Sequence record: NC_100372.1
DNA from: a phage
Direction: 5' to 3' (one strand)
DNA length: 64,000 nucleotides
This document shows positions 32,977 through 46,110 of this stretch, piece by piece (positions within the stretch are counted from its first letter, which is position 1; each line of letters begins with the position of its first letter). A program made the translations under genes and the position numbers. The notes under the pieces were generated by a model, which was not told the DNA's origin, ran no database searches, and saw only the letters and a list, made by a program, of their open reading frames with translations.

Positions 32977-33051
32977 CATCGACACGTTCCAGCCATATGT
33001 CGATAAAGTCTTATTTTTTAAACATGTTGCCGGAATACTCACGGGTGGAAC

Positions 33052-33237
33052 ATGACCAACACACATGCATCTACAGAAACATCTGAAGGAGTGACAGAGG
33101 AAAACTTCAATTCTGAGGATTCTCTATCTCCGTCCCAGGTGGACCCTGAGGCTGATGACCTAACGTGGGAGGATATCATAGCCATCTGGTTCTCTATTAT
33201 GCCTGAGCACGAAGAGTTCAGAGGTGGGAGACTATGA
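33052..33237 (+). CDS. Hypothetical highly acidic protein
   Basis: GGGTGGA upstream. D/E/S-rich. Confidence 0.5.
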   Translation: MTNTHASTETSEGVTEENFNSEDSLSPSQVDPEADDLTWEDIIAIWFSIMPEHEEFRGGRL

Positions 33238-33357
33238 AGCACCGAGCCCACATAAGTTTATCATGCTAAAGCATGGCCTGAAGGGGCAAACGTGCATAAT
33301 TCCATCGTATTGGAACGTATAAACCCCGTTCACACTCTCATTTCCAGAGGAGATTTC

Positions 33358-33573
33358 ATGAAAATAGAAATATTTGGTGGGGCTGACAACACTCGTGGCC
33401 TGATTTACCTTGAATTCGATGAATCTTACCTGCCAGAGGTGTTAAATATAGATGCTGTTGCGGAAGCCCTTGATGTAGACCCTAAAGATCTCTACTCCCG
33501 TGCTGAGATTGATGGTTGGGAAGAGACTCTGAACATTGATTTCAGTGAAGTAGTAGATGAACCTTTGGACTGA
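33358..33573 (+). CDS. Small acidic protein (MKIEIFGG..., family-like)
   Basis: ATG 33358 after AGAGGAG. Last gene of the + strand arm. Confidence 0.6.
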   Translation: MKIEIFGGADNTRGLIYLEFDESYLPEVLNIDAVAEALDVDPKDLYSRAEIDGWEETLNIDFSEVVDEPLD

Positions 33574-33713
33574 CACACAAGTCTGCTTTGCAGGTTTAGC
33601 TGCTCAGCTAAGGTTCTGGAGTCACCTATAACATCTTCCAACTAAATTTCCTACCAACACAGTTACTTACCCACCACACATGACTGTTTGCTTGTTTAGT
33701 GAGCAGTCATCCC

Positions 33714-33741
33714 TTGACATTCTTGCCTATCTTGATAAAAT
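33714..33741 (+). promoter_or_regulatory. sigma70-type promoter firing into ORF-free DNA
   Basis: TTGACA(33714-33719), 16 nt spacer, TAAAAT(33736-33741). No ORF with an SD downstream. Confidence 0.5.
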
Positions 33742-33936
33742 TAAGTTCTTCTCTTTTCTTTTACCGAGTAATTCGGGTTTTCTGTTCTCTTCGGTTTGAA
33801 GGGGTATGGAGATACACCTGAGTGAACAGGGTGAACAACCGAACCTTTAGCTATGGCATTAGCATGGCGAAGCGGACGGGTGACGAAAGAGGGGCCGGAG
33901 GACACCAGTCACTGCCATATAGTATATGGGTGATAA

Positions 33937-34476
33937 CCTGAAGAGTCTGAATAAGTGTTTAAGTACCAGTCAGAGGAAAAGGTGAATGGTAGCCGAAGGG
34001 GGAGGGGGGTTTCTTATATCTTTAATTTGTATACTTTATATACACTTGTAAACCAATTCAATTAGGATCTGTTTACCACACAAAGTGGATGGAGACAAAT
34101 ATCACCTATTAAACTTGAATTATTTATAGAAAATACCACAACACCGCTTAAGTCTTTGATTTTACACACAAATCTTACAAATATCCTACCTCCATATTTA
34201 ACATACTTGTAACATATTCCATATCCTACCTGCCTGATCAATTTACTCCCACCACATTCCCACATTTTCCCTGTCTGTACTACCCCACCCCCGCCGGGAG
34301 TCCCGTCATATCTGGCTTTCCAGCAAATATCACACCCACAAATATCATCACCTGAAGAGGGTTTCATCCCATAATACCTGCCTTACCTGAAGAGCGCTTC
34401 ATACACCACCTAAATTTTTTAATTGACCCCTCCCCGCCGCCGGAGAGGTTGGCTTTTCCCACACAGGCCTGAAGAG
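33937..34476 (+). repeat. CCTGAAGAG 9-mer, 4 direct copies
   Basis: Copies at 33937-33945, 34351-34359, 34386-34394 and 34468-34476. Confidence 0.8.
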
Positions 34477-34706
34477 TCAGCCAGAAATATCTGAACAGGT
34501 CCAGTTATGCCCCGATTTTGTGCTTGTCCTACAGGAGTGCTGCCCTGTCAGGAGCCGGTAGCGACTGGAGTGCTGCCAGGCGGACGGAATGGGAATACTT
34601 CTCATTTTTATAATAATTCTCAAATATCGAGGCAGTGAGGCAAATTAATAGGCCAGGCCGTTCACACAGTGGCACAACATTTGCAATCTATCTTGTGGGA
34701 GTGAAT

Positions 34707-34740
34707 GAGAATACCTATCATTGTGAGAATGGTTATCATT
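34707..34740. promoter_or_regulatory. Two adjacent Fur-box-like sites (GAGAATNNNTATCATT)
   Basis: GAGAATACCTATCATT (34707-34722) and GAGAATGGTTATCATT (34725-34740). The second matches 13/19 of GATAATGATAATCATTATC. Confidence 0.4.
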
Positions 34741-35038
34741 ACGGGCAATTTAACATAATACCTATTATGCGCACCACTGGCGATACATACAGGGATTGAT
34801 AACATGGGTTACTGTTTACGCACATAACAATTATATTTATTACTATTTGTGTGGGATATAGTTAGCAACCAATAGATTAGATATTGACCTGCAGACTTCT
34901 GACCGTCCAGACGTCTAAACGCCCACACAACAAGGATTATACATACATTCCTGAATGTAAACAGGGCCGCAAAAAATGCTACCATACCAGTTTGTAAATT
35001 TTTCATGCAGCACTTGACAAAGAGGAGAAAAACTTGTC

Positions 35039-35100
35039 TGACACAATGTGACAAAATTGCCACTTTTGACACTTTTACCTTTGACACAATATGACACAAT
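35039..35100 (+). repeat. TGACACAAT iteron cluster (5 copies, 3 perfect)
   Basis: Perfect copies at 35039-35047, 35082-35090 and 35092-35100. Variants at 35049 (TGACAAAAT) and 35067 (TGACACTTT). Confidence 0.8.
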
Positions 35101-35193
35101 AACGGCTGTTACTATTCCATATCTCACTGTTTACGTATAGACTGTTTACGCCTGAATAGTTTACGCCCAAACTGTTTACACAGAGATGATAAG

Positions 35194-35432
35194 CCATGAC
35201 ATTCGTTTGCATGAAAACAATTAACAAGTTAATAATATATGACATAATATAAAAGCAGGGCAACTATTAGAAGATCTATAGTTGCCTTGCTTGTTATGTC
35301 ATGATTAACTAAATACAAGGCAACTATGATCTGAATAATAGATTGCAGAAAAACTATCACGGGGGTGATTGTTACTGCTTTTATATTATGTCGCGACTCC
35401 GTCGCGCCATGCCATTCGTTTGCATAGTTGCC
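35194..35432. repeat. Nested direct-repeat / inverted-repeat / palindrome structure
   Basis: 19-nt DR CCATGaCATTCGTTTGCAT (35194-35212 and 35407-35425, 1 mismatch). 18-bp perfect IR GACATAATATAAAAGCAG (35241-35258) / CTGCTTTTATATTATGTC (35375-35392). GGCAACTAT/ATAGTTGCC at 35259, 35278, 35319 and 35424. Confidence 0.85.
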
Positions 35433-36040
35433 TTATTGTTACAGGTAAAACAATTACATTATTAATTATTTCTTATCTTTCTCTTAGTCATCTAATGATT
35501 CCAGTCAGTATAGTAATGTACAGTAAACATTAGACGACTAAAGATTTCTCTGTGTATAATAACTTATCGTGACAATTTCGAACTGTTTACGAAAAATGTT
35601 GACACCTGAGCTGATTTATGTTATGCAGTTTACACGAATAATTATTTTATGCAGGTATTGACTATTCCGTTATTCTGTGGTTGGAATAAATACTTTGCAG
35701 ACTATAGAATGGCGTGCGTACGTGAATTCTGAGATCTGGCGGCTATAGTTATACTCGATTTTTCGCGTAGAACACGCTTTCGATGCTGTGTAAGTGTATG
35801 ACTTATAAAGATTTTTAGTTGTTGACAAGATATTGGAGATGTGCATCAGGTTAAAATTTGTGCAATAGCGGCATTACGTGCACTTTTGGGAGAGAAAACG
35901 GGTAAAAATGGCCCTGCTACCACACAATGAAAGATTATGCAATGGTTATTTTCCATGTATATTTGTACAGTATGTGGGATTGATGGCTAGTCAATTATTC
36001 CACTTGCCAGGTAGGGCCGTTTATGGTAGGAGAAGAGCAG

Positions 36041-36651: not shown

Positions 36652-36915
36652 TTATTTGTTGCTCATCCAGTTTTCCCAAGCTGCCTGATAATCTGCCTCA
36701 CTACGGCGGATCTCTTCTTGTTCTTCAAGCCGGATCTCTTCTTCCAGGTACCCCAAGATATCGGCTTTTTTGGTCTGGCGTAACATCCAATCGTCTTTTT
36801 TGCGAGTAAAGATCTTGTACGCTTTCTCGCAAACTTCTTTTTTGCTACCTTTTTGGACTTCAAGAATTCTGTAAGCCATGTACTGAACTAGTTTGAGCTG
36901 GTCAAGACGTTTCAT
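36652..36915 (-). CDS. Hypothetical protein
   Basis: AAGAGGAAA SD. The overlapping track ORF 36663..36863 is rejected. Confidence 0.65.
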   Translation of the reverse strand: MKRLDQLKLVQYMAYRILEVQKGSKKEVCEKAYKIFTRKKDDWMLRQTKKADILGYLEEEIRLEEQEEIRRSEADYQAAWENWMSNK

Positions 36916-36971
36916 GATGTTTTCCTCTTTATGTGGTTCGTTTCGATTAGTTGATAATATAGCATGAATTG

Positions 36972-37252: not shown

Positions 37253-37525
37253 TTACTTACGGCGGCAGAATTCAAGCGTTTTTAATTGATAATCTTCCTC
37301 AGCCTGAAGTACAACCGCCTCGATCATTTCGTTGGCATTGTTGAAGCCATACCCTTTAGCGAACTCGTCCGCACCACCTTCGTGATCATGTTCTGCGTTC
37401 ATCGCTTCCACGAAATGGAATTCAAGATTATTGAGATAAGGGCTTGATGTTCCGTCCTCTTTTTCGATGAGATCCCAAATAGTATTAAAACGTGATTCGA
37501 CTTCTTGGTTAATCCAGCTTAACAT
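37253..37525 (-). CDS. Hypothetical acidic protein
   Basis: AGAGAGGAAAA SD. Promoter at 37580-37608. Confidence 0.65.
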   Translation of the reverse strand: MLSWINQEVESRFNTIWDLIEKEDGTSSPYLNNLEFHFVEAMNAEHDHEGGADEFAKGYGFNNANEMIEAVVLQAEEDYQLKTLEFCRRK

Positions 37526-37579
37526 GGCGTTTTCCTCTCTTCTGGTTGTTGTGTGGGCACTTTTGCCCCTTCAAGATAA

Positions 37580-37608
37580 ATGTTACCCCACCGCCTGGCA
37601 GGTGTCAA
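37580..37608 (-). promoter_or_regulatory. sigma70-type promoter
   Basis: On the - strand: TTGACA(37608-37603), 17 nt spacer, TAACAT(37585-37580). Confidence 0.6.
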
Positions 37609-37630
37609 CGGTTTTTATAGTTTTTTATAT

Positions 37631-37677
37631 GACAGGCACCCCCGGTGATTGTCTCCCCCCGTCGCCAGGTGCCTGCC
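37631..37677 (-). repeat. GC-rich hairpin element, copy C (candidate ncRNA / protein-binding hairpin)
   Basis: On the - strand: GGCAGGCACC-UGGCGACGGGGGGAGACAAUCACCGGG-GGUGCCUGUC. The 23-nt core (37635-37657) is the exact reverse complement of 45480-45502. Confidence 0.7.
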
Positions 37678-37692
37678 GTGAAACAAGTATAA

Positions 37693-37720
37693 CAAAAAAC
37701 AGGACCATTACAAGCCCTGT
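37693..37720 (-). terminator. Rho-independent terminator
   Basis: On the - strand: ACAGG-GCTTGTAATGGT-CCTGT followed by TTTTTTG. Confidence 0.7.
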
Positions 37721-37737
37721 TTTATGGTTTATAAAGA

Positions 37738-37929
37738 TTATATTTTTTCGCCTATATAGTCCGGTCGGTTTTTCTCTGTCATACGCTTAAGCAATTCTTG
37801 CATGTTGCTTATGGCTTGCAGTGTATCCTCTTCAAGGGATGAATCGAGATAATCAGGATCATTCTTCACCTTGCAATGGTTATGGTAACGTAGTACTGCC
37901 AGTACTTTTTTAACTTCTTCTGCTGTCAT
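37738..37929 (-). CDS. Hypothetical protein
   Basis: AGGTGG SD. Third gene of a 3-gene unit. Confidence 0.6.
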   Translation of the reverse strand: MTAEEVKKVLAVLRYHNHCKVKNDPDYLDSSLEEDTLQAISNMQELLKRMTEKNRPDYIGEKI

Positions 37930-39883: not shown

Positions 39884-39927
39884 GATCATTACTCCTTTTT
39901 GCACTGATTATTTTAACAGGGTTTAAA

Positions 39928-39972
39928 TTTACTTTATTGATGGCCCTGGAGTCAAGGCCATCTAAAAATAAA
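39928..39972 (-). repeat. 45-bp perfect repeat, copy 1: hairpin with the -35 hexamer in its loop
   Basis: Identical to 43671-43715. On the - strand: GATGGCC-TTGACTCCAG-GGCCATC, then about 18 nt to TAAATT. Confidence 0.85.
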
Positions 39973-39974
39973 TT

Positions 39975-40175
39975 TTACAGGCCTACAATCTCTTTAATTC
40001 GTTTTACTGCTGCCTCAGCGCCTTGAGGGTAAAAATTATGGTAACCAATCACGCGGGTAATACTGATCGCCACTTGATGATCTTCATAATCGCCTTTGAA
40101 GATTTCTTGACCGTCAATCAGCACGGCAATTTTTTCTTCTTTTTTGAAGTTAATAACGCGGATATTGTTGCTCAT
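39975..40175 (-). CDS. Hypothetical protein (66 aa)
   Basis: ATG 40175 after AAAGGAGAAA. Confidence 0.6.
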   Translation of the reverse strand: MSNNIRVINFKKEEKIAVLIDGQEIFKGDYEDHQVAISITRVIGYHNFYPQGAEAAVKRIKEIVGL

Positions 40176-41093: not shown

Positions 41094-41474
41094 TTAAAAA
41101 TTATCGCCGTAAATCTTTCCGCTTTCTACCCATACCACCACGCGGGGCATACTATCCCACACATCTTGTTTTAGATTGAGCGAGTGCAGTTCTTCGGTGG
41201 TGCTCATACCGGGCACGGGCTGATTGTATACTGCAAAACGACCGCCTGCATAATCATAGGCCAGGGTTAAATCACACTGGATCATCTTTTTGATCATGGC
41301 ATTAAGCATAGCGTTAGCCGCGTACTGATCTCGTTTTAATGGCAACTCTTTAATCAGTTTGCGATAGTTTTCGATATGGTCGCACACTGTTTCACGCGGA
41401 AGATCTTTCATATCTTCACGGAATGTAACCAGGTTAAACATAACGGTGTCAATAGCTTTAGTAGTGTTTTTCAT
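41094..41474 (-). CDS. Hypothetical protein
   Basis: ATG 41474 after AAGAGGAAA. Confidence 0.65.
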   Translation of the reverse strand: MKNTTKAIDTVMFNLVTFREDMKDLPRETVCDHIENYRKLIKELPLKRDQYAANAMLNAMIKKMIQCDLTLAYDYAGGRFAVYNQPVPGMSTTEELHSLNLKQDVWDSMPRVVVWVESGKIYGDNF

Positions 41475-41529
41475 GATGTTTTCCTCTTTGTTTTGTGGGA
41501 GGCAAGTCATCTCGCCCCCTTGAGTTTTA

Positions 41530-43306: not shown

Positions 43307-43381
43307 GTTACTTTCTCCTTTCATGGTGTTAATAAATTATCTTTATAGATGGCCCTGCAGCCAGGACCACCGAAAAAATAA

Positions 43382-43627
43382 CTATTTCACAATGCCCACA
43401 AAACAGATCCCGCCTTCCCCGACGTAGGCAATATCGGTCACTTTGTAGTCGGTTAAGATCTGTTTATTCAGATCATTAATAAAATCGGTCATTGCGTTGG
43501 TGTAGTTGTCTTCCATGTCTAGGGAATAATCCCAGGTGTAAACCTTTTTACGTCCGAAGCCTTTAACAACAACACGGGCACCTTTGGTGTTGGTTGGTGC
43601 ATAGTATTTAGTGATTAGTGCTGCCAT
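43382..43627 (-). CDS. Hypothetical protein
   Basis: GAGGAG SD. Confidence 0.65.
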   Translation of the reverse strand: MAALITKYYAPTNTKGARVVVKGFGRKKVYTWDYSLDMEDNYTNAMTDFINDLNKQILTDYKVTDIAYVGEGGICFVGIVK

Positions 43628-43670
43628 GGTTTTAACTCCTCTGTATTAGTTCAGTGTTAACAGTGTAAAG

Positions 43671-43715
43671 TTTACTTTATTGATGGCCCTGGAGTCAAGG
43701 CCATCTAAAAATAAA
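43671..43715 (-). repeat. 45-bp perfect repeat, copy 2
   Basis: Identical to 39928-39972. Sits between the stop of 43717..44121 and the start of 43382..43627. Confidence 0.85.
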
Positions 43716-43716
43716 C

Positions 43717-44121
43717 TTAGTAAGTTTTCAGTACTTTACCGTCCAACCTGTCAAGCTGGATCTCGATAGCTGCAGAAAACCTATTGTACACCACGTCGCC
43801 CATGGAATCCAACCAGTCTATGACGTTATACACCTGCTCTTTGTTCTTGCAGGTCCGGATCCGTTTCATGATGTAAGCCGGATCAATATTGGTACTTTCG
43901 TTGGTGTTCCCCTGTACCTGATTTGCCGTATTAGTTACATCTTTAATGGCCTTTACCACCACCTGGAAGGGCTTTAAGGTGCCTTTTGCGTTCATCTCAC
44001 GCGCTTTTGCGGCGCGGTTGTTATATGTTACACAACGGCGGCAAATGTTCACCAAATGCATGTCAATAATTTTTTCATCGTTTGCCAGTTCGTTCATGAT
44101 GCGGCGTACGTTCTTATTCAT
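43717..44121 (-). CDS. Hypothetical protein
   Basis: AAAGGAAAAAG upstream. Confidence 0.65.
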   Translation of the reverse strand: MNKNVRRIMNELANDEKIIDMHLVNICRRCVTYNNRAAKAREMNAKGTLKPFQVVVKAIKDVTNTANQVQGNTNESTNIDPAYIMKRIRTCKNKEQVYNVIDWLDSMGDVVYNRFSAAIEIQLDRLDGKVLKTY

Positions 44122-44203: not shown

Positions 44204-44602
44204 TTATTCGTGGGCGCATGTTACAATGTGCTTTTTATAGCCCAGGTGGTTAGCAAGTGCCGACAAAAACTCTTCTTCATAGATCCAGCCGTTGGCAGTG
44301 ATCCCCATAGCATTTAATGCGCTCTCAAGTGCTGCATTAGCTTTATCGTAACCGTGACCGCTCGCCTTCCCGCCAGTATAACCGTACTTATTGTTCTTGT
44401 TGTCGTGAATCCAAAAAACGCAGTATTGAGTGTTCCCGCTGGCGGCGGCATAATACCGGATCTCAGCTACTTCGTGCAAATTATTGTCATCGTCCAGGCC
44501 CACCAGATTATAAGCCTTGTAAAATCCACGATCACGGCGGCAGTTCTTGACATCAGAAAAAGAAAAGTCCGCATTATCAAAATTAAAGGTAGTGGTTTTC
44601 AT
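44204..44602 (-). CDS. Hypothetical protein
   Basis: AAGAGGA SD. Confidence 0.65.
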   Translation of the reverse strand: MKTTTFNFDNADFSFSDVKNCRRDRGFYKAYNLVGLDDDNNLHEVAEIRYYAAASGNTQYCVFWIHDNKNNKYGYTGGKASGHGYDKANAALESALNAMGITANGWIYEEEFLSALANHLGYKKHIVTCAHE

Positions 44603-44666
44603 GATTTTATCCTCTTAGTGTCTTTTGTGCTTTTAGTGTATTTGGTGTCGGACTGTATGTCAATAC

Positions 44667-45121: not shown

Positions 45122-45281
45122 TTTTGTACCTCCTCTTCAATTGTTACCTGCCCTGTAGCATAGGCCTACCAGGTTTGCAAGCTTTCACTCTCTCCTACCT
45201 GGTCAGTCAGGTCCTGCCAGGCTGGCCCCGCCAGGTTGCAGCGGTTGGTGTATTATGTTAGAAAAAATTTTTGAAGAAGTG

Positions 45282-45312
45282 TTGACAGCGGCCCCGCCAG
45301 GTGGCACAATAT
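45282..45312 (+). promoter_or_regulatory. Candidate + strand promoter upstream of hairpin element A
   Basis: TTGACA(45282-45287) then CACAAT/CAATAT at 17-19 nt. Antisense to all neighbouring genes. Confidence 0.4.
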
Positions 45313-45327
45313 ACCTATCGAAAGGAC

Positions 45328-45374
45328 GGCAGGCACCGGTGACGGGGGAGACAACCACCGGGGATGGGCGCTGC
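45328..45374 (+). repeat. GC-rich hairpin element, copy A (candidate ncRNA)
   Basis: GGCAGGCACCGGTGACGGGGGAGACAACCACCGGGGATGGGCGCTGC. Inner stem CCGGUG/CACCGG. Followed by the Fur-box-like GAGAACGGTTATCATTATC (45382-45400). Confidence 0.65.
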
Positions 45375-45461
45375 ATAAAATGAGAACGGTTATCATTATC
45401 ATTTAAAAATTTATGCAAAAAATCCTTGCTTTCTTTGTCCTGTGTGATACTATAATAACAA

Positions 45462-45504
45462 GCCGGGGCAACAGGGGCCGGGAGACAATCACCGGGGGTG
45501 CCCG
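45462..45504 (+). repeat. GC-rich hairpin element, copy B (candidate ncRNA)
   Basis: GCCGGGGCAACAGGGGCCGGGAGACAATCACCGGGGGTGCCCG. Starts 6 nt after a consensus TATAAT (45451-45456). Followed by the Fur-box-like GAGAATGATTATCATT (45518-45533). Confidence 0.65.
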
Positions 45505-45639
45505 TTATTCTGCAAACGAGAATGATTATCATTCAAAATTCTAAATGAGAACTTTTCGCATTTCATAAATTTAGTTAGCATGCTAATTACCTACCGTGAC
45601 AATTCTATATAAAATAATACCTCCTTAAATATTTCCATA

Positions 45640-46110
45640 TACAAATTTTAAAAATCCATTTCCGAAAACGAAAAATCGATTTCGTCCCCAAAAATTTCAG
45701 GTCGAGCTCCGGAACGATTTCCAGAAAATCTGATTCAGAAAACGAAAAACAGATCGAGTACTAAGAAATTTATCGAGAAAAATTTTCAGAAAATTCAATC
45801 TTTGAAACGAAAAACAGATCGAGTACTGAGAGAGATGTATCAAAACCTGCTGAGAATAATGGGTTTATTGTTATAAAGGGTCAAAGGTAAGCTGGGAAAG
45901 TTCCGGTAGAAGGGTGAGAGTATGTGCGGAAAATCTGGAATAGTAACTTAAAGTACGGTGCGAACGATAGAATGAGCAGCACATCTTATCGCGCCTGTCT
46001 TGAAAAATCCATTTTAGTTTTCGATCCATTTTCTGATTTTCTAAGAATTTTAAAATATCCGGCTAGGTAAAATATCAAAAGGAGGAAATCCATTTTAGAA
46101 ATCCTCCTTA
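45640..46110. repeat. AT-rich degenerate tandem repeats / iterons (origin-like)
   Basis: 22-nt perfect DR AACGAAAAACAGATCGAGTACT at 45741-45762 and 45806-45827, with a degenerate copy at 45667. AAATCCATTTTAG at 46005 and 46086, with variants at 45652 and 46023. Confidence 0.75.
46071..46109 (-). terminator. Rho-independent terminator
   Basis: On the - strand: AAGGAGGA-(15 nt loop)-TCCTCCTT followed by TTGATATTTT. Confidence 0.6.

What the first reader, a model, noticed from the sequence alone, without database searches (positions are those of the whole stretch)
37625..37700. Third copy of the hairpin element, in inverted orientation 7.8 kb away, sharing a perfect 23-nt core with copy B
Nt 37635-37657 (GGCACCCCCGGTGATTGTCTCCC) is the exact reverse complement of 45480-45502. 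Read on the - strand, copy C (37677-37631) aligns almost base for base with copy A, as GGCAGGCACC(U)GG(C/U)GACGGGGGAGACAA(U/C)CACCGGGG.

C sits exactly between a - strand terminator (37693-37720) and the next - strand promoter (37580-37608). It is preceded by TTATAC 9 nt upstream. C is therefore co-oriented with the local genes, whereas A and B are antisense to theirs. This argues for an autonomous unit rather than a leader of a particular gene.

The spurious peptide TGTPGDCLP that appears in two unrelated track ORFs (37467..37790 + and 45203..45532 -) is a by-product of this repeat.
Basis: seen in the sequence. Interest (0 to 1): 0.62.

Follow-up and report, generated by a model that had tools for sequence, protein, structure and literature searches.

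The report
Conserved phage transcript-start element, third copy
The flagged sequence is a real third copy of a roughly 50-base element that forms the start of a transcript from its own promoter, and it belongs to a large, apparently undescribed family in rV5-like, phi92-like and Pseudomonas PAK_P3/PAK_P1-like phages whose conserved part is an 18-base linear motif rather than the hairpin.

Summary
Observation confirmed. 37635-37657(+) is the exact reverse complement of 45480-45502, with no such match in any shuffle. A profile search finds exactly three copies in the window: C on the - strand, A and B on the + strand.

The window is a Vequintavirinae (rV5-like) phage. The element occurs 1-3 times per genome in at least 244 phage records (Vequintavirinae, Stephanstirmvirinae) and in 65 Pseudomonas phage records (Nankokuvirus, Pakpunavirus). 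It occurs at nearly every operon start in one group of uncultured phages that share no detectable protein with this one. It is absent from 5,426 E. coli genomes and is not a bacterial repeat. No Rfam family or paper matches it.

In 61-62 of 63 unique copies a -10 hexamer ends exactly 22-24 or 29-30 nt before GGAGACAA, so the element is the first ~50 nt of a sigma-70 transcript. The conserved part is the linear block GGGGGAGACAAnCACCGG. The hairpin is strong in this copy only and shows no covariation family-wide. The B/C identity reflects lineage-specific gene conversion.

Function is unknown. My preferred model is a 5' RNA tag read by a host component, protecting against termination or Rho (about 0.35). 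The main rival is a set of sibling small RNAs (about 0.3).

The parts
37696..37723 (-). Intrinsic terminator of the upstream gene. Its loop carries the -35-like TTGTAA (37713-37708) of the element's promoter.
   Evidence: terminator 37723-37696; promoter TTGTAA-16-TATACT with TG. The same terminator-with-embedded-promoter design is seen in CR3, SSBI34, phita32, KP13-26, PD211 and L044.
37686..37694 (-). Extended -10 (TGtTATACT) of the promoter that starts copy C. Six nt follow, then the inferred +1 at A 37679.
   Evidence: In 61-62 of 63 unique family copies a -10-like hexamer ends 22-24 or 29-30 nt before GGAGACAA, and 29 of them have TGn.
37631..37679 (-). Element copy C: ACGGCAGGCACCUGGCGACGGGGGGAGACAAUCACCGGGGGUGCCUGUC.
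   Evidence: nhmmer E=2e-15.
37640..37657 (-). Invariant core GGGAGACAAUCACCGGGG, the only block of the family with high information content.
   Evidence: Information profile over 62 unique copies; alignment A1.
37580..37608 (-). Second (gene-proximal) promoter TTGACA-17-TAACAT between the element and the next gene.
   Evidence: The same tandem layout (element promoter, element, gene-proximal promoter, gene) is seen in the uncultured L011-type phages.
37253..37525 (-). Downstream gene (90 aa, no known family). It is not conserved next to the element in other lineages.
37738..37929 (-). Upstream gene (63 aa) whose terminator carries the element's promoter. It has a 40%-identical homologue in the same position in Salmonella phage SSBI34.
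45282..45310 (+). Promoter of copy A (TTGACA-17-CACAAT with TG).
45326..45376 (+). Element copy A, antisense to the flanking - strand genes.
   Evidence: I16; E=3e-8.
45426..45456 (+). Promoter of copy B (TTGCTT-16-TGaTACTAT, overlapping TATAAT).
   Evidence: Read. The position of the -10 is conserved in all B-type copies.
45461..45510 (+). Element copy B. It shares the exact 23-mer 45480-45502 with C.
   Evidence: E=5e-9.
45379..45562 (.). Three Fur-box-like palindromes AATGAGAAnnnTTnTCATT (45379-45397, 45515-45533, 45544-45562) lying after A and B.
   Evidence: (D11). The spacing after B-type copies is fixed from E. coli phages to Serratia and Phapecoctavirus phages.
45651..45831 (+). Iteron-like direct repeats (…AACGAAAAACAGATCGAGTAC…) toward which the A and B promoters point.
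   Evidence: D3, D6. Related iterons lie downstream of the element in CR3 and Nankokuvirus (about 160-260 nt) and, further away, in Pakpunavirus.

Best explanation
Copy C is a genuine third paralogue of a ~50-nt element that forms the first ~50 nt of a transcript.

Shown:
- Each copy lies 6-7 nt downstream of its own sigma-70 -10 box. For C this is an extended -10 built into the T-tract of the upstream terminator.
- The element is a self-contained promoter-plus-5'-module cassette. It occurs in front of unrelated genes, in front of non-coding iteron DNA (A and B), or alone.
- The family spans rV5-like, phi92-like, and Pseudomonas KPP10/PAK_P3-like and PAK_P1-like phages, plus uncultured phages with no detectable shared protein.
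- Only the linear block GGGGGAGACAAnCACCGG, at about +16 to +40, is conserved. The flanking hairpin is not.
- B and C are kept alike in this lineage by gene conversion.

Inferred:
- The element works as RNA on the strand set by its promoter.
- It acts as a promoter-proximal tag on the nascent transcript that is read by a component common to all the hosts, such as the RNA polymerase elongation complex with Nus-type factors, or possibly the 30S subunit.
- As a result, transcripts from these promoters escape premature Rho-dependent or terminator-dependent termination, or decay. The transcripts concerned are the untranslated RNAs from A and B, or mRNAs with long untranslated leaders, as for C and the operon copies in the uncultured phages.
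- In logic this resembles HK022 putL or a boxA-type signal. In sequence it is unrelated to them.
For: Anatomy:
- There are exactly three copies in the window.
- A -10 hexamer sits at a fixed distance in 61-62 of 63 unique copies, and 29 have an extended TGn.
- The terminator-embedded promoter is conserved across genera.

Family and host independence:
- The element is found in 137 and 244 phage records and in 65 Pseudomonas phage records. In uncultured phages it sits about 120-150 nt before the first ATG of nearly every operon.
- No protein is shared between those loci and the Vequintavirinae loci at E<1e-3. This suggests, but does not prove, a host rather than a phage partner.

Linear motif:
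- The information profile, the lack of covariation and tolerated G-run lengths of 5-11 all point to a linear motif.

RNA sense:
- In the proposed helices there are 24 G.U cells against 5 A.C cells, so 78.8% of cells pair on the sense strand against 69.2% on the antisense strand.
- The distance from the promoter varies (+16, +23, and 5 nt further in slur16), which is hard to reconcile with a rigid DNA site.

Part of longer transcripts:
- Only 3 of 62 copies have a clean terminator within 140 nt downstream.
- A and B point into about 600 nt without ORFs and then run antisense to genes. The operon copies have leaders of 150 nt or more. The early region is dense in terminators.

Precedent:
- putL starts at +3 of the PL transcript and acts on RNA polymerase without any phage protein (PMC9378689).
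Against: - No transcript data exist for this element. The start sites are inferred from promoter geometry only.
- put RNA has a defined two-stem fold and boxA has a defined sequence. This element has neither, and no boxA is present.
- Orphan copies followed by an intrinsic terminator and facing convergent genes look more like small-RNA genes (L075, L073, L078, L011 and L044; a closing helix plus UUUU in Nankokuvirus).
- Each gene behind an element also has its own proximal promoter, so the tag is not needed to express it.
- The absence of shared proteins was tested only on the roughly 120 kb of DNA in hand.
Confidence: 0.35

Rival explanations
1. Sibling small RNAs. Each cassette is a gene for a short non-coding RNA of about 50-100 nt, ended by weak termination after the closing helix or by processing. 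Its exposed invariant core acts in trans as a seed for a conserved host RNA, or as a decoy for a host protein or the 30S subunit. The core resembles a ribosome-binding site without a start codon (GGAG plus a 9-nt A/C-rich spacer).
For: - Every copy has its own promoter.
- The copies share an identical core but differ in their flanks, as sibling sRNAs do.
- Orphan units end at an intrinsic terminator 25-40 nt after the core.
- In Nankokuvirus the element is a closing helix followed by UUUU.
- L044 copies abut bidirectional terminators.
- Short 5'UTR-derived RNAs made by premature termination are common in phages (PMC10914365).
- True translation-initiation regions in one lineage look like the core (GGAGuAAUCACC-AUG).
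Against: - Only 3 of 62 copies have a clean terminator within 140 nt, and copy C has none.
- Within the 64 kb, the only complementary sites above shuffle level are the opposite strands of the copies themselves.
- There is no conserved terminator or Hfq-type 3' end.
- B and C differ in several genomes, so pairing between copies is not under selection.
Confidence: 0.3
2. A DNA-level site. The invariant block is bound as double-stranded DNA by a regulator, or is a programmed pause signal for RNA polymerase just after promoter escape, and so controls the promoter it follows or the one downstream.
For: - The primary sequence is conserved without structure.
- The core fits the consensus elemental pause G(-10)/Y(-1)/G(+1) if the pause falls at CAC-C|G (my own reading of the sequence against established knowledge).
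- Operator-like palindromes or repeats follow the element in both lineages.
Against: - The core has no dyad symmetry.
- Its distance to the upstream promoter varies (+16, +23, and 5 nt further), and so does its distance to the downstream promoter: the core lies about 70-85 nt upstream of that promoter's start here and about 100-115 nt upstream in the uncultured phages.
- It is conserved in phages with no detectable shared protein.
- A pause consensus needs only three bases, not 16.
- The -10-like GACAAU loses its critical last T in about half of the copies.
Confidence: 0.12
3. An origin-associated transcript, for A and B. The tandem promoters fire a G-rich RNA toward the iteron region to activate or prime replication. 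C would then be a dispersed duplicate.
For: - The order promoter-plus-element, then operators, then iterons is conserved in Vequintavirus, Certrevirus, Nankokuvirus and Pakpunavirus.
- The region is about 1 kb without genes.
Against: - C, and the many operon-start copies in the uncultured phages, have no iterons nearby.
- In Nankokuvirus a U-tract follows the element before the iterons.
- GC skew gives no origin signal here; it flips only with gene orientation at 33-34 kb.
Confidence: 0.1
4. A passive regulatory cassette. The repeat is only a promoter-terminator module copied around by recombination, like the promoter-plus-stem-loop cassettes of T4-type phages, and the core has no function of its own.
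For: - Terminator-embedded promoter cassettes without the element recur in the window (D1 family at 39925, 43334 and 43668).
- There is evidence of gene conversion between copies.
Against: The same 16-18 nt core is kept in phage lineages with no other detectable DNA or protein similarity and different hosts, while everything around it has diverged.
Confidence: 0.08
5. A host-derived or REP-like generic repeat.
For: None found.
Against: - blastn of the 181-nt region finds no match in 5,426 complete E. coli genomes.
- A scan of 185,579 species genomes gives 27 single, scattered hits, about the chance level. Only one locus is a real homologue (L044, a Pseudobdellovibrionaceae MAG contig, with two copies).
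Confidence: 0.01

Closest known systems
HK022 put RNA (putL/putR), a protein-independent processive antiterminator
   Same: It is a nascent-RNA element lying directly behind an early sigma-70 promoter (putL starts at +3). There are two or more copies per genome in opposite orientations. It acts on host RNA polymerase with no phage protein. It contains a weak -10-like NANNAT near +23..+28, and GACAAU lies at +27..+32 in copy C (PMC9378689).
   Different: put is about 70 nt with two defined stem-loops and an RNA triplex. This element is about 50 nt with no conserved fold. I recognised no similarity to put, but I did not have the put sequence to compare. The last base of the -10-like hexamer is not conserved. 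Several copies face no gene.
lambda/P22 nut sites and the rrn boxA antitermination signal
   Same: Like boxA, it is a short linear RNA motif near the 5' end of untranslated or long-leader transcripts that is read by conserved host factors. There is a small GNRA-loop hairpin (CCUG-GNRA-CRGG) and a GACAA-containing loop reminiscent of the P22 boxB pentaloop (the latter from memory). The 8-mer AGACAAUC is also present in the E. coli rrn leader between boxA and boxC (rrn sequence confirmed).
   Different: There is no boxA (UGCUCUUUA) in or next to the element. The boxB-like hairpins are weak and are not supported by covariation. The rrn 8-mer match may be chance (roughly 1 in 100 before allowing for the number of comparisons made). 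No N-like protein was identified.
Phage 5'UTR-derived or orphan small RNAs (ONT-cappable-seq candidates in Pseudomonas phages; lambda oop RNA)
   Same: It has its own promoter, a short non-coding product and sometimes a terminator close behind. Some copies converge on the 3' end of a gene, as oop does.
   Different: Here the conserved part is the 5' end, outside any antisense overlap. Most copies lack a terminator. It is not the published PAK_P3 sRNA1 or sRNA2, which differ in sequence and lie at 85-86 kb, whereas the element lies at about 50.8 kb.
Promoter-early/stem-loop (PeSL) cassettes of T4-type phages (from my own knowledge, not tested here)
   Same: It is a repeated terminator-plus-early-promoter module between small early genes of unknown function, and it is prone to recombination or gene conversion.
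   Different: PeSLs are defined by the promoter and stem-loop only. Here an additional transcribed 18-nt block is conserved far beyond one phage group.

Membership tests
Any Rfam 15 RNA family | Covariance-model match at or near the family's gathering score | tested here: not met
   The whole window gave 0 hits at the gathering threshold. The C region, the A/B region and six homologous loci gave only noise at E<=5-10, on terminators or snR9.
HK022 put RNA | Element begins within a few nt of the start of an early sigma-70 transcript | tested here: met
   A -10 hexamer sits at a fixed distance in 61-62 of 63 copies. This is inferred from geometry, not from mapped 5' ends.
HK022 put RNA | Two conserved stem-loops (~70 nt) supported by covariation | tested here: not met
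   No conserved structure was found. The element is about 50 nt long.
HK022 put RNA | Suppresses downstream terminators through the beta' zinc-binding domain | not testable with these tools
   This needs in vitro transcription or reporter assays.
boxA / Nus-factor antitermination signal | boxA sequence (U/C)GCUCUUUA in the leader | tested here: not met
   There is no boxA in any copy. The closest stretch is CGCUAUUC after the element in some copies, 6 of 8 matches by my own reading.
lambda/P22 nut boxB | Stable 5-bp stem with a GNRA-like pentaloop, bound by a phage N protein | tested here: inconclusive
   CCUG-GNRA-CRGG is 97.8% paired but shows one-sided changes only. The pairing of the G-run with (U)CACC around AGACAA is supported only by a G-to-U change opposite the invariant A in three copies. 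No N-like protein was sought successfully.
Hfq-type trans-acting sRNA | Own promoter plus Rho-independent terminator with a U tail | tested here: inconclusive
   The promoter is always present. A clean terminator within 140 nt is present in only 3 of 62 copies, and copy C has none.
Hfq-type trans-acting sRNA | Complementary target site | tested here: not met
   Within the 64-kb window, only the opposite strands of the copies themselves exceed shuffle level. Host targets could not be searched.
Intrinsic terminator | GC-rich hairpin directly followed by a U-tract | tested here: not met
   The copy C hairpin is followed by CAUAUAAAAAAC on the - strand and by CGUGAAAC on the + strand. It is not listed by the terminator scan.
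Host REP-like / bacterial interspersed repeat | Many copies in the host chromosome | tested here: not met
   No match in 5,426 E. coli genomes. Hits across 185,579 species genomes are at chance level.
CRISPR-repeat mimic (RNA anti-CRISPR) | Similarity to a CRISPR direct repeat | tested here: not met
   No CRISPR-DR family hit falls on the element at E<=10. Its resemblance to the E. coli I-E repeat is only vague (my own reading).
Protein-coding micro-ORF | Reading frame kept among homologues | tested here: not met
   The G-run differs by 1 and by 5 nt between close relatives. There is no conserved start codon.

The most novel reading that the evidence does not exclude
The 18-nt block is a new kind of linear, host-directed 5' signal, unrelated in sequence to boxA or put. 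Several unrelated lytic phage lineages (enterobacterial rV5/phi92-like, Pseudomonas PAK_P3/PAK_P1-like, uncultured phages) place it at the very start of selected transcripts. It would make host RNA polymerase, or the transcript, resistant to Rho, terminators or decay without any phage protein.
Probability: 0.2. Interest if true: 0.85.

Novelty: new variant of a known kind. Interest (0 to 1): 0.6.

Why it matters
rV5-like, phi92-like and PAK_P1/PAK_P3-like phages are widely used therapy candidates, yet their early regions consist almost entirely of genes and signals of unknown function.

A short motif kept invariant at the 5' end of selected transcripts, across phages that share no detectable protein and infect different hosts, suggests a direct interface with conserved host machinery. 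It gives a concrete, easily mutated handle for three things:
- studying how these phages control early, non-coding and antisense transcription;
- improving annotation, since many records call spurious ORFs across the element;
- possibly building a portable genetic part.

It is also a candidate new RNA family for Rfam.

Tried and rejected
- **Rfam.** Whole window at the gathering threshold, then permissive scans of C, of A/B and of six homologous loci. Nothing was found. No tRNA or tmRNA either.
- **Host repeat.** Rejected.
- **Literature.** The core sequence in six spellings appears in no relevant paper. Vequintavirus transcriptomics searches found nothing usable. PAK_P3 sRNA1 and sRNA2 are different RNAs. 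The supplement of the ONT-cappable-seq paper is not held.
- **Conserved hairpin.** Column-wise pair counts, RNAalifold, shuffle z-scores and a cognate-versus-non-cognate arm test give no family-wide support.
- **Trans target in the phage.** Only the copies' own opposite strands score above shuffles.
- **Pairing between C and the - strand RNA of B.** Rejected as a selected feature, because B differs from C in several genomes.
- **Shared partner protein.** None found between the lineages. The flanking proteins have no Pfam family. PHROGs hits were uninformative.
- **Coding, sigma-dependent pause, G-quadruplex, Chi/IHF/DnaA-box, CsrA/Hfq motif and tRNA-like readings.** Considered from the sequence and dropped, because the required bases are not conserved.
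- **Origin signal from GC skew.** None.
- **rrn-leader mimicry.** The 8-mer AGACAAUC is shared and the rrn sequence was verified. However, boxA is absent and the published NusA-binding data do not cover that segment. I keep this only as a lead.

Full report
**1. The observation**

The 23-mer GGCACCCCCGGTGATTGTCTCCC lies at 37635-37657 (+) and, as an exact reverse complement, at 45480-45502. No shuffle of the window produced a match. The repeat finder extends this pair to 29 nt at 93% and links C to copy A over 23 nt at 91%.

On the - strand, C reads ACGGCAGGCACCUGGCGACGGGGGGAGACAAUCACCGGGGGUGCCUGUC (37679->37631). It aligns with A and B as described. A profile built from 17 homologues finds exactly three sites in the 64 kb, at E = 2e-15, 5e-9 and 3e-8. 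The next hit is at E = 12.

- There is a - strand terminator at 37723-37696 and a - strand promoter at 37608-37580.
- TTATAC lies 9 nt upstream of the element. It is better read as the extended -10 TGtTATACT at 37694-37686.
- The shared peptide TGTPGDCLP is present in two mechanical ORFs.

**2. Where the window comes from and how widespread the element is**

The window is a Vequintavirinae (rV5-like) phage. The region 36-47 kb is 88-98% identical to many Escherichia rV5-like phages, and nearly every annotated gene under the match is a hypothetical protein.
- The 61-nt element alone hits 137 phage records with 264 places, usually 2-3 per genome.
- A diverged copy used as query reaches 244 records. 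These include Certrevirus (Cronobacter, Pectobacterium, Klebsiella phages), Serratia and Salmonella phages, and Stephanstirmvirinae, that is phi92-like and Phapecoctavirus.
- It is also present once per genome in 65 Pseudomonas phage records of the genera Nankokuvirus (KPP10, PAK_P3) and Pakpunavirus.
- Pattern scans of IMG/VR and of metagenomes recovered a further group of uncultured phages, here called L011-type. They carry the element at nearly every operon start, with at least six copies on one 42-kb contig.
- These phages have no DNA match to cultured phages. They share no protein with the Vequintavirinae loci at E<1e-3.

The element is not a host repeat:
- There is no match in 5,426 complete E. 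coli genomes.
- There are 27 single, scattered hits in 185,579 species genomes, about the number expected by chance for 17 specified bases. Only one locus is homologous (L044, a Pseudobdellovibrionaceae MAG contig, with two copies).
- No Rfam 15 family matches, and no paper in the library contains the core sequence.

**3. Anatomy**

In 61-62 of 63 unique copies, a -10-like hexamer with the key A2 and T6 ends exactly 22-24 nt (B-type and L011-type) or 29-30 nt (C-type) before GGAGACAA. Twenty-nine of these have the TGn extension. The first conserved base, nearly always A, lies 7 nt after the hexamer. The element is therefore the first ~50 nt of a sigma-70 transcript. This is inferred from geometry, not from mapped ends.

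For C-type copies the promoter is built into the preceding terminator. The -35 sits in the terminator loop and the T-tract runs into the extended -10. This design is kept in Vequintavirus, Certrevirus, SSBI34, Stephanstirmvirinae and L044.

Downstream of C lies a second, canonical promoter and then the gene. The L011-type phages have the same layout: terminator, upstream promoter, element, repeated TGTAAC sites, a second promoter (TTTACA-17-TATAAT), a short leader and the ATG.

The gene downstream of C is unrelated in five lineages, whereas the upstream gene is conserved between the window and SSBI34 (40% identity).

A and B in the window point away from any gene. The B-type copies in CR3, Nankokuvirus and Pakpunavirus likewise point into a non-coding region with palindromes and iterons. 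Some copies in the uncultured phages and in L044 are orphan units, followed after 25-40 nt by a terminator and facing convergent genes.

**4. What is conserved**

Over 62 unique copies, only the block gggGGAGACAAnCACCGg carries high information. A weaker UGCC-G--AU follows it. The 30 nt upstream of the block are variable.

The hairpin that drew attention is a property of this copy, not of the family:
- The closing helix of copy C is the strongest of the 28 representative copies tested (-22.3 kcal/mol; z = -4.2 for the 60-nt RNA).
- Most homologues fold no better than shuffles.
- Pair counts on the C-type alignment reach 78.8% paired but are indistinguishable from column shuffles.
- RNAalifold on 20 L011-type copies finds three base pairs.
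- Cognate 5' and 3' arms pair no better than non-cognate arms (mean rank 0.50; 373 of 2000 permutations do as well).

Weak structural hints remain:
- A 4-bp stem closes a GNRA loop (GCGA, GGGA, GGAA, GUGA). It is 97.8% paired but shows one-sided changes only.
- The G-run may pair with (U)CACC around an AGACAA loop. The only substitution seen in the run is G to U, and it falls exactly opposite the invariant A.
- These small helices compete for the same G residues.

G.U pairs outnumber A.C pairs 24 to 5 in the proposed helices. This favours RNA of the promoter-defined strand, although a G-rich sequence biases the count.

The G-run varies from 5 to 11 residues. This excludes coding and argues against a rigid DNA site.

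**5. The B/C identity**

Two alleles of the 3' segment (GGGGGUGCC and GG(G/A)CCUGCC) and three alleles of the N position are distributed as a mosaic among A, B and C:
- In this window B and C are identical.
- In EdH4 B and C are also identical, but with the other allele.
- In CR3, DU_PP_IV and SSBI34, B and C differ.

The 23-nt identity is therefore best explained by recent gene conversion, not by a requirement that the copies pair with each other.

**6. Mechanism**

The steps shown and the steps inferred are listed in the best explanation. My preferred reading (about 0.35) is as follows. The conserved block is a promoter-proximal RNA tag read by a component common to all hosts. It changes the fate of transcripts that would otherwise be exposed to Rho, terminators or decay.

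The arguments for this reading are:
- The element sits at the exact 5' end of the transcript.
- It is a linear motif.
- It is conserved in phages with no detectable shared protein.
- Most copies lack a nearby terminator.
- A and B produce untranslated RNA, and the operon copies have leaders of 150 nt or more.
- The early region is dense in terminators.
- putL provides a precedent. It starts at +3 and needs no phage protein (PMC9378689).

The main rival (about 0.3) is a family of sibling small RNAs acting in trans. The orphan terminated units favour it, as does the closing helix followed by UUUU in Nankokuvirus. Two findings count against it. Copy C, like most copies, has no terminator. No target exists within the window.

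Smaller shares go to a DNA-level site or pause signal, to an origin-associated transcript for A and B, and to a passive recombination cassette.

**7. Comparison with known systems**

The element works most like put or boxA in its position and in its apparent independence of phage proteins, but it fails their defining features of fold and sequence. It is neither of the published PAK_P3 sRNAs.

One lead is the 8-mer AGACAAUC, shared with the E. coli rrn leader between boxA and boxC. I verified the rrn sequence in all 5,426 genomes. This match may be chance, and the published NusA binding data do not cover that segment.

**8. Verdict**

It is conserved far beyond this phage and was not found in Rfam or in the paper library searched. 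The interpretation as an autonomous unit holds, but the emphasis on the hairpin does not. Function remains open and is directly testable.

Noticed in passing
window 34588-34606, 34704-34722, 34722-34740, 45379-45397, 45515-45533, 45544-45562: Six copies of a 19-bp palindrome AATGAGAAnnnTTnTCATT lie in two non-coding patches. Those checked match the E. coli Fur-box consensus in 14-16 of 19 positions. A copy sits at a fixed distance after B-type elements from E. coli phages to Serratia and Phapecoctavirus phages. CR3 has four after B and one after C. They could be Fur sites or operators of a phage regulator.
   Followed up: partly
window 45651-45831; L084 1395-1490; L085 ~850-948; L016 15190-15350: Iteron-like direct repeats (…AACAGATCGAGTAC…) lie downstream of A and B. 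Related iterons (TCGAGTAC in Nankokuvirus, CGATCGAGACCC in CR3, CCAGTYCCTAA in Pakpunavirus) occupy the same position relative to the element. This is a conserved ~1-kb non-coding region, possibly an origin.
   Followed up: partly
window 39925-39975, 43334-43384, 43668-43718: A 51-nt repeat family (D1) consists, on the - strand, of a terminator hairpin with TTGACT in its loop followed by a -10-like hexamer. This is the same terminator-embedded promoter design as at copy C but without the element, and it resembles PeSL-type cassettes.
   Followed up: no
window 36910-36937, 41469-41496, 44597-44624: The 28-nt repeat family D2 is a shared translation-initiation region (AAGAGGAAAACAUCAUGAAA on the - strand) of three small early genes.
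   Followed up: no
L032 (slur16) 225-240; L035; L016 vs L022: The G-run inside the element is length-polymorphic between close relatives (5, 6 and 11 G), which suggests slippage.
   Followed up: yes
L044 560-800 and 3900-4160 (Pseudobdellovibrionaceae MAG contig, 330 kb): Two element copies have the same terminator-embedded promoter, and each abuts the terminator of a convergent gene, on a contig binned as bacterial. This may be a prophage or a mis-binned phage.
   Followed up: partly
window 45573-45584; L085 ~735-795: The palindrome TTAGCATGCTAA lies between copy B and the iterons. Pakpunavirus has three GCTAAC-containing repeats at the equivalent place.
   Followed up: no
window 45975-46091 (- strand): A small ORF of roughly 38 codons has a strong AAGGAGGA ribosome-binding site inside the 'non-coding' region. 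It was too short to be listed at the ORF length cut-off I used.
   Followed up: no
window 33000-36000: GC skew flips sign here, where + strand genes meet - strand genes. Several database records of related phages start at about window 35,400.
   Followed up: no
window 37655-37644 and E. coli rrn leaders: The core shares the 8-mer AGACAAUC, followed by a G-rich stretch, with the E. coli rrn leader between boxA and boxC. The rrn sequence was verified at 7 places per genome.
   Followed up: partly
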